Of a stretch of DNA of 64,000 bases, positions 54,465 through 54,670 are shown one piece after another. A model generated the notes under the pieces. It was not told the DNA's origin, did no database searches, and saw only the letters and a list, made by a program, of their open reading frames with translations. Positions within the stretch are counted from its first letter, which is position 1; each line of letters opens with the position of its first letter. Source of the DNA: Gallionella sp. GTDB lineage: Bacteria; Pseudomonadota; Gammaproteobacteria; Burkholderiales; Gallionellaceae. The DNA is taken from NCBI GenBank assembly GCA_034371155.1, contig JAXMKV010000017.1, positions 13,371-77,370 on the forward strand, in the 5' to 3' direction. The position numbers and the translations under genes are program-made.

Positions 54465-54502
54465 AAAAACAAAAAAGGCCACAGCGGGATTTCTGTGGCC
54501 TT
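54465..54502 (-). terminator. Attenuator-type terminator in the EamA leader
   Basis: AAGGCCACAG/CTGTGGCCTT 10-bp stem followed by UUUUGUUUUU, about 10 nt before the EamA start. Confidence 0.8.
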
Positions 54503-54527
54503 CGGGAAGATTCGTTACGACTGAAAA

Positions 54528-54632
54528 CTAATACCGACTCTCCGGGCCAACCTGCGCAAAGCGCCATACCGCGCACGGATGCGCGACCGGCAGGACGTGG
54601 ACTTTGAAAAGGATAGCGGATGCGGTGTTCAT
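54528..54632 (-). CDS. Putative 34-aa leader peptide upstream of the EamA transporter
   Basis: MNTASAILFKVHVLPVAHPCAVWRFAQVGPESRY*, located between a sigma70-like promoter and the terminator. Confidence 0.55.
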   Translation of the reverse strand: MNTASAILFKVHVLPVAHPCAVWRFAQVGPESRY

Positions 54633-54640
54633 GGACGGGG

Positions 54641-54670
54641 ATTATCCGCGCGCGGTGGCGGGCGCGTCAA
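54641..54670 (-). promoter_or_regulatory. Sigma70-like promoter for leader-EamA
   Basis: TTGACG-N18-GATAAT, 8 nt before the leader ATG. Confidence 0.6.

What the first reader, a model, noticed from the sequence alone, without database searches (positions are those of the whole stretch)
54465..54670. Candidate leader-peptide transcription attenuator controlling an EamA exporter
Seen on the minus strand, in order: promoter TTGACG-N18-GATAAT, an almost leaderless 34-codon ORF (54632-54528), a 10-bp terminator stem with U tract, then the EamA RBS. The 3' part of the ORF (GGCCCGGAGAG) can pair with CUUCCCGAAGGCC, which overlaps the terminator 5' arm and would form an antiterminator. The peptide has no run of one amino acid. 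Inference: attenuation by nascent-peptide stalling on a metabolite rather than classical tRNA starvation sensing, which would point to the substrate of the exporter.
Basis: partly seen in the sequence, partly recalled or inferred. Interest (0 to 1): 0.62.

Follow-up and report, generated by a model that had tools for sequence, protein, structure and literature searches.

The report
Leaderless leader-peptide attenuator before EamA transporter
The 200 bases in front of this membrane-transporter gene are a real, conserved on/off switch in which a ribosome translating a tiny, start-at-the-first-base reading frame decides whether transcription stops. It is a textbook kind of switch, but this family is undescribed, and what it senses is still unknown.

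Summary

The arrangement is not chance. The same leader precedes the orthologous EamA gene in 64 of 81 sources (the window plus 80 genome loci), across Gallionellaceae, Sulfuricellaceae, Nitrotoga and Thiobacillus, although the upstream neighbour varies.

- **Conserved features:** TTGACA-N18-GATAAT, with an ATG 6-8 nt after the -10. The ORF is open in 60/60, and its stop lies 14-27 nt after a conserved block (GUGGYCUGGAGAG).
- **Alternative pairings:** segment 1 (codons 2-8) pairs with the block. The block pairs with the terminator's 5' arm, and that arm pairs with its 3' arm. Covariation supports these pairings.
- **Wider family:** closely similar leaders precede methyltransferase/PNPOx-like genes in Nitrospirota. 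One shows a three-way compensatory change.
- **Databases:** Rfam has no match.

Best reading (0.7) is a classical ribosome-position attenuator. It terminates without translation or after complete translation, and reads through when the ribosome is held in codons 1-23.

The signal is unresolved. There is no codon run. The block is conserved as nucleotides and is read in three frames, and only one Trp codon, 12-13 nt before the block, is shared across phyla.

This is a new member of a known kind.

The parts
54665..54670 (-). -35 hexamer TTGACG
   Evidence: Found by the promoter scan. TTGAC is invariant in 60/60 aligned relatives.
54641..54646 (-). -10 hexamer GATAAT, 18-nt spacer
   Evidence: The spacer is 18 nt in nearly all relatives (17-19 in five), and the A, A, A and T positions of the -10 are invariant.
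54528..54632 (-). Leader ORF, 34 codons plus UAG. The ATG lies 8 nt after the -10, so the mRNA is leaderless or has a 1-2 nt leader.
   Evidence: In 60/60 relatives the ATG lies 6-8 nt after the -10 and the frame stays open for at least 28 codons, against 0.44 in shuffles.
54610..54626 (-). Segment 1 (anti-antiterminator strand, codons 3-8). It pairs with segment 2.
   Evidence: Present in the MFE of the window and of nearly all relatives. Cognate 1:2 duplexes beat non-cognate ones in 0/5000 permutations. Helix 1 is 74-75% paired with 4-5 compensatory pairs.
54557..54606 (-). Hairpin P1 inside the ORF (RNA nt 27-76). It is enclosed by the 1:2 helix and is a possible RNA-polymerase pause hairpin.
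   Evidence: On the model-fitted alignment, 16 of 19 pairs show changes on both sides.
54564..54566 (-). Single Trp codon (UGG, codon 23), 13 nt upstream of the segment-2 core
   Evidence: An in-frame UGG lies 12-13 nt before the block in 50/63 relatives. The nine Nitrospirota peptides with this spacing (nine metagenome loci and the four distinct methyltransferase-contig leaders) all keep it except L127.
54533..54553 (-). Segment 2, AGGUUGGCCCGGAGAGUCGGU. It copies the terminator's 3' arm and pairs either with segment 1 or with segment 3.
   Evidence: GUGGYC..GG is nearly invariant. The 2:3 helix is 93% paired and its extension 75% paired, with 5 compensatory pairs. L207 shows a triple compensatory change.
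54528..54530 (-). Stop codon UAG of the leader ORF, 24 nt before the terminator stem (54503), 27 nt before its invariant GGCCAC core
   Evidence: The stop begins 14-27 nt after the block start in 63/63, whatever the frame.
54493..54509 (-). Segment 3, CUUCCCGAAGGCCACAG. It is the pyrimidine tract plus the terminator's 5' arm.
54474..54503 (-). Intrinsic terminator hairpin (segments 3:4), 11 bp, -18.1 kcal/mol
   Evidence: It is 97% paired across 64 sequences, with the GGCCAC/GUGGCC core invariant.
54465..54476 (-). U tract UUUUUUGUUUUU
54459..54464 (-). Shine-Dalgarno GGAGAG of EamA. It directly abuts the U tract, so there is no room for a separate promoter.
53567..54454 (-). Regulated gene: a 295-aa EamA/DMT transporter
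   Evidence: Pfam EamA hit at 9.6e-34. It falls below the NCBIfam cut-offs for YedA and 2A78. Orthologues share 63-86% identity across Gallionellaceae and neighbouring families.

Best explanation
This is a ribosome-mediated (leader-peptide) transcription attenuator that gates the EamA transporter gene.

**Starting point.** Transcription starts at or within 2 nt of the AUG of a 34-codon ORF, so a 70S ribosome can load on the 5' end as soon as it emerges.

**The four segments.**
- Segment 1 is codons 3-8.
- Segment 2 is UUGGCCCGGAGAG at the ORF's 3' end. It copies the terminator's 3' arm.
- Segment 3 is CUUCCCGAAGGCCAC, which contains the terminator's 5' arm.
- Segment 4 is the terminator's 3' arm plus the U tract.
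- A hairpin, P1, lies between segments 1 and 2.

**Outcomes.**
- With no ribosome, 1:2 forms, 3:4 terminates, and EamA is off. This also stops read-through from the upstream DsrC-like gene.
- With the ribosome run to the stop codon, it covers segment 2, 3:4 terminates, and EamA is off.
- With the ribosome held anywhere from the start codon to about codon 23, segment 1 and P1 are masked while segment 2 stays free. Then 2:3 forms, the terminator cannot form, and EamA is transcribed.

**Shown.** The elements, their conservation, the ORF, the three alternative pairings, and what folding predicts when a ribosome footprint is masked.

**Inferred.** That translation happens, the kinetic order of events, and above all what slows the ribosome.

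**My ranking of the signal.**
- Shortage of charged tRNA-Trp read at the single conserved UGG placed 12-13 nt before segment 2: about 0.35.
- General translation inhibition or ribosome-targeting compounds, as in drug-sensing attenuators: about 0.3.
- A ligand-dependent nascent-peptide arrest: about 0.15.
- Something else: about 0.2.
For: **The elements in the window.**

**Conservation and linkage.**
- The leader+EamA module is conserved in 64 of 81 sources (the window plus 80 orthologous loci), one copy each.
- The upstream neighbour varies, so the leader travels with EamA.
- The U tract abuts the EamA SD. The spacing is 16 nt in the window and 17-41 nt in about 25 of the other copies.

**Evidence that the ORF is translated.**
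- The ATG lies 6-8 nt after the -10 in 60/60.
- Frame 0 is open in 60/60, against 0.44 in shuffles.
- The stop lies 20-38 nt before the terminator arm, and 14-27 nt after the block, in every frame class.

**Evidence for the structures.**
- On an unfitted alignment, 78% of cells are paired against 35-52% when partners are slid. Covariation exceeds all 500 shuffles.
- On the model-fitted alignment, 29 pairs have double changes against 18.8±2.1 expected.
- Cognate duplexes for 1:2 and for the 2:3 extension are stronger than non-cognate ones in 0/5000 permutations.
- Most transcripts cut before the 3' arm fold into 2:3, and nearly all full-length ones fold into 1:2 plus the terminator.
- L207 changes GUGGCC/GGCCAC/GUGGCC to GCGGCC/GGCCGC/GCGGCC in segments 2, 3 and 4 together.

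**Ribosome-masked folds of the window's own leader.** They give 2:3 for a ribosome at the start codon or at the Trp codon. They give the terminator for a ribosome at the stop codon or for no ribosome.

**Independent branch.** The same design turns up before Nitrospirota genes in loci that were not pre-selected by pattern.
Against: - There is no transcript evidence. Only assembled contigs of metatranscriptomes were available, and they show neither 5' nor 3' ends.
- There is no run of regulatory codons. A single UGG is a weak sensor, and 8 of 63 leaders lack it.
- The UGG lies inside helices and within a GUGGC motif, so its conservation could be at the RNA level.
- An exporter switched on by amino-acid shortage makes little physiological sense, and the direction of EamA transport is unknown.
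- Frame 2 is also open in 46/60, because stop codons are rare in this composition. Open-frame statistics alone are therefore only moderately strong.
- Related sequences are not independent samples.
- On the window alone the fold is not exceptional (z = -1.06).
Confidence: 0.7

Rival explanations
1. The nascent leader peptide, together with a small molecule that may be the transporter's substrate, arrests the ribosome in the manner of TnaC, SpeFL or CruR. That arrest, rather than tRNA shortage, frees the antiterminator.
For: - There is no codon run.
- [A/V]-W, often followed by H or R, is kept at the peptide level. It survives in two phyla whose nucleotide contexts differ, at 39-58% G+C and with different hairpins around it.
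- The peptide is strongly basic and has no D or E in codons 2-23.
- An arrest with W near the peptidyl-transferase centre would put the ribosome exactly where segment 2 stays free.
Against: - The C-terminal third is conserved as RNA and is read in three different frames.
- P1 codons covary with their pairing partners, so residues change, for example MV to KA.
- Residues before W are not conserved in the Nitrospirota copies, for example LITAW and HNAAW.
- Closely similar leaders precede unrelated enzymes, so the signal is unlikely to be one exporter's substrate.
- Known ligand-sensing arrest peptides act through Rho or translation and have longer conserved motifs. For CruR this is from PMC9426467; for TnaC and SpeFL it is my own knowledge.
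Confidence: 0.12
2. This is a translation-independent RNA switch, such as a riboswitch or a protein- or sRNA-binding leader. P1 and its flanks would bind a ligand and select between 1:2 and 2:3, and the ORF would be incidental.
For: - The strongest conservation is at the nucleotide level.
- P1 is a long hairpin with covariation.
- Frame 2 is also often open.
- About half of the relatives carry a second structured element, a pseudoknot next to the SD.
Against: - P1 has no conserved unpaired core. In Nitrospirota it is replaced by a 5-bp hairpin.
- The ATG sits at a fixed 6-8 nt after the -10 in all copies in both phyla. A stop always follows the block within 27 nt in whichever frame is used. 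These two facts are hard to explain without translation.
- There is no Rfam match.
Confidence: 0.07
3. This is an independent small gene, either an sRNA or a 34-aa protein, with its own promoter and terminator that merely lies upstream of EamA. A variant is an attenuator whose terminated about 165-nt product also acts in trans, as rnTrpL does in Sinorhizobium.
For: - It has its own near-consensus promoter and a strong terminator with a long U tract, which is typical of Hfq-type sRNAs.
- The 3' part, AGCAGUUUCC..AAGGCCACAG, is extremely conserved.
- The weak sub-threshold Rfam hits are all to sRNA terminators.
- There is precedent in rnTrpL and peTrpL (PMC6614838; PMC7298713).
Against: - There is no room for an EamA promoter after the terminator in the window or in many relatives.
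- The element always lies on the same strand directly before EamA, or before methyltransferase genes in Nitrospirota, despite variable upstream genes.
- The conserved alternative pairings only make sense for cis control.
- A trans role in addition to cis control is not excluded.
Confidence: 0.08

Closest known systems
E. coli trp operon leader (trpL) and the other classical amino-acid attenuators (his, phe, thr, leu, ilv). Own knowledge; summarised in PMC4007540.
   Same: - It has a short leader ORF and four segments giving 1:2, 2:3 and 3:4 alternatives.
- An intrinsic terminator lies just before the regulated gene.
- The stop codon is placed so that a terminating ribosome covers segment 2.
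- The Trp codon lies 12-13 nt before segment 2, close to the trpL geometry.
   Different: - The ORF is leaderless rather than SD-led.
- It is 28-38 codons long, with a large hairpin inside the coding region.
- It has no tandem regulatory codons, only one UGG.
- The regulated gene is a DMT transporter (methyltransferases in Nitrospirota), not a biosynthetic operon.
- It matches no Rfam leader family.
Leaderless leader peptides: Sinorhizobium meliloti trpL/rnTrpL (PMC6614838) and the 14 predicted leaderless leader peptides of Deinococcus deserti (PMC4007540)
   Same: The transcription start coincides with the leader ORF's start codon, and attenuation works through a terminator and an antiterminator.
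   Different: - Those ORFs are short and rich in the cognate amino acid.
- They control amino-acid biosynthesis or tRNA-synthetase genes.
- The family here lies in other phyla and has no enrichment for a single cognate amino acid.
Ribosome-mediated attenuators of drug-response genes in Firmicutes. vmlR is from PMC9226507 (listed). bmrB-bmrCD and ermK are from my own knowledge.
   Same: - The leader ORF has no codon run.
- Read-through is expected when the ribosome is slowed.
- The downstream genes are of the efflux or modification type: a DMT exporter here, and SAM methyltransferases and a Nim-like Pyridox_ox_2 in the Nitrospirota branch.
   Different: - No inducing drug or arrest motif is known.
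- The hosts are chemolithoautotrophic Betaproteobacteria and Nitrospirota.
- The ORF is leaderless.
- There is no sequence similarity.
Ligand-sensing arrest peptides. TnaC and SpeFL are from my own knowledge. CruR of Bordetella is from PMC9426467.
   Same: A small upstream ORF controls premature termination of the downstream genes, and it contains a conserved Trp, as TnaC does.
   Different: - Those systems use Rho-dependent termination and longer peptide motifs conserved at the amino-acid level (W..D..P, HIRRXXH, CXXC+RAPP).
- Here the terminator is intrinsic, and most conservation is in the RNA.

Membership tests
Classical leader-peptide transcription attenuator (trp type) | Short translated ORF in the 5' leader | tested here: inconclusive
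   The ORF, its start position and its stop position are conserved in 60/60 relatives and in Nitrospirota. Translation itself could not be observed. No ribosome profiling was available, and the RNA data were contigs only.
Classical leader-peptide transcription attenuator (trp type) | Intrinsic terminator between the leader ORF and the regulated gene | tested here: met
   An 11-bp stem at -18.1 kcal/mol with a U6GU5 tract, followed directly by the EamA SD. It is 97% paired in 64 sequences.
Classical leader-peptide transcription attenuator (trp type) | Antiterminator (2:3) mutually exclusive with the terminator | tested here: met
   - The 2:3 helix is 93% paired, and its extension 75% paired with 5 compensatory pairs.
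- It forms in most truncated folds.
- Cognate duplexes are stronger than non-cognate ones.
- L207 shows a triple compensatory change.
Classical leader-peptide transcription attenuator (trp type) | Anti-antiterminator (1:2) overlapping the early codons | tested here: met
   Segment 1 (nt 7-23) pairs with segment 2 in the MFE of the window and of nearly all relatives. The helix is 74-75% paired with 4-5 compensatory pairs. The permutation test gives 0/5000.
Classical leader-peptide transcription attenuator (trp type) | Cluster of codons for the amino acid that is sensed | tested here: not met
   - There is no run of any residue.
- Arg (13%) and His (7%) are enriched in the proteobacterial copies, but five of the ten metagenome Nitrospirota peptides have no Arg.
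- Only one Trp codon is shared.
Classical leader-peptide transcription attenuator (trp type) | Regulated genes make, charge or import the sensed amino acid | not testable with these tools
   The EamA substrate and direction of transport are unknown. The protein falls below the NCBIfam cut-offs.
Drug- or stress-sensing ribosome-mediated attenuators (vmlR, bmrCD, erm type) | Leader ORF without codon runs, plus a terminator/antiterminator switch, before a resistance-type gene | tested here: inconclusive
   The architecture fits. The downstream gene classes are compatible: DMT exporter, methyltransferases, Pyridox_ox_2. None of these genes is shown to confer resistance.
Drug- or stress-sensing ribosome-mediated attenuators (vmlR, bmrCD, erm type) | Induction by a translation inhibitor through drug-dependent stalling | not testable with these tools
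   This needs reporter assays or toeprinting.
Ligand-sensing arrest peptides (TnaC, SpeFL, CruR) | Peptide motif conserved at the amino-acid level around the arrest site | tested here: not met
   The C-terminal block is read in three frames. Only [A/V]-W is shared between phyla.
Ligand-sensing arrest peptides (TnaC, SpeFL, CruR) | Control through Rho-dependent termination or translation | tested here: not met
   An intrinsic terminator with competing hairpins is present instead.
Any curated RNA family (Rfam 15) | Match at or above the gathering score | tested here: not met
   There is no match in the window region at E up to 10 or in 20 relatives at gathering score. The only hits are sub-threshold matches to the terminators of sRNA families.
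Riboswitch | Conserved aptamer core with invariant unpaired nucleotides | tested here: not met
   P1 varies freely in sequence. In Nitrospirota it is replaced by a short hairpin.

The most novel reading that the evidence does not exclude
The leader is one branch of a cross-phylum family, in Nitrosomonadales and Nitrospirota, of leaderless sensor ORFs. The ribosome, perhaps together with the nascent ...[A/V]-W peptide, would report a particular small molecule or a ribosome-targeting natural product. It would then switch on a small export and detoxification set: the EamA exporter, a Tam-like methyltransferase with a Nim-like flavoprotein, PhzF-like enzymes and CM_2-cupin enzymes. The abundant terminated 165-nt RNA might also act in trans. 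That would make it a proteobacterial and Nitrospirota counterpart of the Firmicute drug-sensing attenuators, and it would give a handle on the substrate of a widespread orphan DMT transporter.
Probability: 0.2. Interest if true: 0.8.

Novelty: new member of a known kind. Interest (0 to 1): 0.5.

Why it matters
Leader-peptide attenuators are textbook for amino-acid operons of enteric bacteria. Very few are known for transporters, for Betaproteobacteria outside the classical operons, or for Nitrospirota. This family is absent from Rfam.

It is a compact, experimentally tractable switch, with one promoter, one 34-codon ORF and one terminator. It is conserved in front of a core orphan EamA transporter of iron- and sulfur-oxidising bacteria. 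Finding what stalls the ribosome would reveal when that transporter is needed, and probably what it carries.

The leaderless start is also useful. Here the initiating 70S ribosome itself masks the anti-antiterminator. That makes this a clean natural system for studying how leaderless translation couples to transcription.

For annotation, the family gives a covariance model. The model marks a regulated promoter and prevents the 34-codon ORF or the terminator from being misread as an sRNA gene.

Tried and rejected
1. **Known RNA families.** Rfam scans of the window region, of 20 related loci and of two leaders at permissive thresholds gave nothing. The only hits were sub-threshold terminator look-alikes: ncS54, SdsR and isrD.
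2. **Transcript ends.**
   - Metatranscriptome runs that hold the window's neighbourhood cover only the conserved DsrC-like gene.
   - Runs that hold the Ferrigenium straubiae locus give one flat 11-24 kb contig.
   - Only assembled contigs were served, so neither a start nor a 3' end could be seen.
3. **Arg, His or Cys starvation.** Arg and His are enriched in the proteobacterial peptides, and some Sideroxydans copies carry HHHC-like strings. However, the window's own peptide has no Arg before codon 24, the Nitrospirota peptides mostly lack Arg, His and Cys, and the composition follows from a C-rich strand that must pair with G-rich partners. I rejected these as the common signal.
4. **Terminator of the upstream DsrC-like gene only.** The upstream gene differs from locus to locus while the leader stays with EamA, so I rejected this.
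5. **The soil-metagenome hits of my DNA pattern.** These have an SD-led ORF ending ...W(A/V)(S)GGL... before a roughly 95-aa HTH_3 protein. The covariance model does not recognise them, and they lack the leaderless start. I treat them as a separate family picked up by the pattern.
6. **An EamA link in Nitrospirota.** tBLASTn of the window's EamA against the Nitrospirota loci found nothing. One locus has only a 77-aa fragment with a weak EamA hit, plus a short hydrophobic ORF.
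Full report
**1. What is in the window**

All of the following lies on the minus strand. A DsrC/TusE-like gene (55039-54698) is followed by a 243-nt gap and then by a 295-aa EamA/DMT transporter gene (54454-53567).
- The promoter TTGACG-N18-GATAAT lies at 54670-54641. It is the only promoter-like site in 2 kb, where shuffles give 0.4.
- An ATG at 54632, 8 nt after the -10, opens a 34-codon ORF that ends in UAG at 54530-54528.
- An 11-bp hairpin, GAAGGCCACAG/CUGUGGCCUUU (54503-54474), folds at -18.1 kcal/mol and is followed by U6GU5.
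- The EamA Shine-Dalgarno sequence GGAGAG directly abuts the U tract.

On its own the 251-nt stretch does not fold unusually well (z = -1.06), so the case rests on comparison with relatives.

**2. The element is conserved and belongs to EamA**

- The EamA protein has thousands of relatives. The closest come from Gallionellaceae, Sideroxydans, Ferrigenium and similar taxa.
- I fetched 80 orthologous loci, one genome per species. The window plus 59 of them gave 60 leader sequences with the same upstream arrangement.
- A covariance model built from these finds exactly one full-length copy in 64 of 81 sources. It always lies on the EamA strand just upstream of EamA. There is no second copy in the 64-kb window or elsewhere in the loci.
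- The gene upstream of the leader differs from locus to locus, so leader plus EamA is a self-contained module.
- In the window and in about 25 relatives the U tract ends 16-41 nt before the EamA start, which leaves no room for another promoter. EamA must therefore be transcribed through the terminator.
- Rfam has no family for this element.

**3. Evidence that the ORF is used**

- The -35 and -10 boxes and their 18-nt spacing are nearly invariant.
- The ATG sits 6-8 nt after the -10 in all 60 aligned leaders. That is where transcription normally starts, so the mRNA is leaderless or nearly so.
- The ATG frame is open for at least 28 codons in 60/60 sequences. Shuffled sequences give 0.44, and the other two frames are open in 46/60 and 6/60.
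- ORF length varies between 28 and 38 codons, yet the stop always falls 20-38 nt before the terminator's 5' arm.
- The most conserved nucleotide block is GUGGYCUGGAGAG. It is read in three different frames in different lineages (55, 7 and 1 sequences), giving ...GGLES*...VAWRISS* or ...VWSGELAI*. A stop still follows 14-27 nt after the block start in all 63.

The ORF and the place where it ends are therefore conserved. The C-terminal peptide is not.

**4. The RNA alternatives**

- Transcripts cut just before the terminator's 3' arm mostly fold so that the block pairs with the pyrimidine tract plus the terminator's 5' arm, GUGGYC-UGGAGAG with CUUUCC..AAGGCCAC.
- Full-length transcripts almost all fold differently. 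The terminator forms, and the block pairs with nt 5-22, that is codons 2-8.
- Between segments 1 and 2 lies a long hairpin, P1.
- Pair counts on an ordinary MAFFT alignment give 78% and 76% of cells paired, against 32-52% when partners are slid. Covariation exceeds all or nearly all of 500 shuffles.
- On the model-fitted alignment, 29 of 41 pairs show changes on both sides, against 18.8±2.1 expected. This alignment leans towards the structure.
- In a test that does not depend on alignment, cognate 1:2 duplexes and cognate 2:3 extensions are more stable than pairings between different genomes in 0 of 5000 permutations.
- The core GGCCAC/GUGGCC never varies in the proteobacterial set. That is expected if three segments must stay mutually complementary.
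- The missing covariation turned up in Nitrospirota. In L207, segments 2, 3 and 4 read GCGGCC, GGCCGC and GCGGCC.

**5. How it should work in the window**

I folded the window's own leader with a ribosome footprint masked.
- With a ribosome on the start codon, or with the Trp codon in the A site, the antiterminator forms before the 3' arm is made.
- With a ribosome at the stop codon, or with no ribosome, segment 3 stays free and the terminator forms.

This is the classical logic: off without translation, off after complete translation, on when the ribosome is delayed inside the ORF. Because segment 1 lies in the first 23 nt of a leaderless mRNA, even a ribosome stuck at initiation would switch the gene on. 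The default-off state would also stop transcripts coming from the DsrC-like gene, which has no terminator of its own. That last point is an inference.

**6. What is sensed**

There is no run of any codon.
- The proteobacterial peptides are basic: Arg 13%, His 7%, and no Asp or Glu in codons 2-23.
- That composition follows from a C-rich strand that has to pair with G-rich partners. The window's own peptide has no Arg before codon 24.

To see whether the leader occurs before other genes, I scanned metagenome contigs with a pattern for block plus terminator. The hits fell into three groups:
- **EamA group.** 31 of 120 hits precede EamA orthologues.
- **Low-G+C group, assigned to Nitrospirota** (the assignment rests on homologues of one locus's (L148) methyltransferase). 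It has the same design:
  - TTGACA-N17-TATAGT, with an ATG 6-7 nt later.
  - A 26-30-codon ORF such as MFYANPIIVTKGLLNAAWHINAVAGGGFY, followed by the block and the terminator.
  - The downstream genes are Tam-like and other SAM methyltransferases, a Pyridox_ox_2 flavoprotein, a PhzF-like protein and a CM_2-cupin protein.
- **Soil group.** It precedes small HTH proteins, is not recognised by the model, and I regard it as a separate family.

Because those loci were pre-selected by my pattern, I checked independently. I fetched contigs of four methyltransferase homologues at 57-79% identity. All four carry the leader.

Across both phyla the only shared residue is a Trp, usually preceded by Ala or Val.
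- Its codon lies 12-13 nt before the block in 50 of 63 proteobacterial copies.
- It is present in all but one of the Nitrospirota copies.
- A ribosome waiting at that codon would end just short of segment 2, much as in E. coli trpL.

This makes charged tRNA-Trp my first candidate for the signal. There are three reasons for caution: it is a single codon, 8 of 63 copies lack it, and the downstream genes have no evident link to tryptophan. Those genes are a DMT exporter, methyltransferases and a Nim-like flavoprotein. They look more like the sets controlled by drug-sensing attenuators such as vmlR (PMC9226507). I cannot decide between these readings from sequence.

**7. Comparison with what is known**

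In working principle this is a trp-type attenuator. As a family it is undescribed.
- Leaderless leader peptides are already known in Deinococcus deserti (PMC4007540) and Sinorhizobium meliloti (PMC6614838), so that feature is not new in kind.
- Nascent-peptide sensors in Betaproteobacteria exist, for example CruR (PMC9426467). They use Rho and long peptide motifs.
- Three earlier notes of this scan describe near-leaderless ORFs before EamA genes in other genomes. One lists the same GGCCAC/GTGGCC four-segment layout. I treat these as leads, not as support.

**8. Limits**

- No experimental or read-level transcript data were available.
- The related sequences share ancestry, so counts of sequences overstate independent support.

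**Verdict**

This is a real, conserved, ribosome-dependent attenuator of an orphan EamA transporter. It is a new member of a known kind, and its signal is unresolved. The best explanation has confidence 0.7, and I score interest at 0.5.

Noticed in passing
L001:2436-2500. The same place in about 35 of 64 related loci (e.g. L006:2444-2500, L047:2441-2500). L021:280-445 has three tandem copies. Absent from the window.: A 45-60-nt structured insert lies between the leader's U tract and the EamA Shine-Dalgarno sequence.
- Stem A is 8-13 bp (CCGUUCNNN/NNNGAACGG), with 26 different compensating sequence pairs.
- A GGCUC in stem A's loop pairs with a GAGCC that ends exactly 2 nt before GGAG, which makes an H-type pseudoknot. 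A few compensatory variants occur, such as GGCUGAU/AUCAGCC and AAGCUCA/UGAGCUU.
- It is found nowhere else in the loci and has no Rfam match.

It may be a second, translational control element or a small aptamer.
   Followed up: partly
L120:470-626, L148:183-305, L190, L196, L084, L122, L125, L127, L172. Independently L201:1352-1489, L204:1363-1489, L207:1363-1489, L210:1339-1489.: Nitrospirota (including Thermodesulfovibrionales) carry a closely similar leaderless leader, with a peptide of the form MF....[TA]AW[H]..AVAGGGFY. It precedes different genes: a Tam-like methyltransferase (often followed by a Pyridox_ox_2 gene), a second methyltransferase type, a PhzF-like protein and a CM_2-cupin fusion. 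Two nearly identical leaders from one sample precede different genes (L125 and L127). That suggests a small regulon.
   Followed up: partly
L085, L086, L087, L091, L098, L104, L108, L121, L124 and about 40 more of L081-L200: Soil-metagenome contigs hold a different leader. An SD-led ORF of 22-45 codons ends ...W(A/V)(S)GGL.... A copy of the terminator's 3' arm (CCGGUGGCC) lies upstream of AAGGCCACCGG...CCGGUGGCCUUUUUUUU. It is followed within 30-100 nt by a conserved protein of roughly 95 aa with an HTH_3 domain. It looks like another attenuator family, and my covariance model does not match it.
   Followed up: no
window 54671-54697: The DsrC/TusE-like gene ends only 27 nt before the leader's -35 box and has no terminator of its own. 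Its transcripts must run into the leader, where the untranslated ORF would favour termination. In other genomes this gene is absent from the locus. In L033, for example, the leader lies directly next to the divergent YlqF-type GTPase gene.
   Followed up: partly
L202:2847-3280: Downstream of the methyltransferase/Pyridox_ox_2 pair of one Nitrospirota genome lie two short ORFs. One is a 77-aa ORF with a weak precomputed EamA hit, and the other is a 37-aa hydrophobic ORF. They look like the two ends of a decayed EamA-type transporter gene. That hints that a transporter once belonged to this operon too.
   Followed up: partly
L003, L019, L020, L029 (about 130 nt upstream of EamA): A minority of orthologous EamA genes lack the leader entirely. 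These are some Sideroxydans and Gallionella genomes. They have a divergently transcribed gene close upstream instead, which suggests a different mode of regulation.
   Followed up: no
L001:3500-3868 (minus strand): In one relative the tmRNA gene lies about 140 nt downstream of EamA (Rfam RF00023, 229 bits).
   Followed up: no
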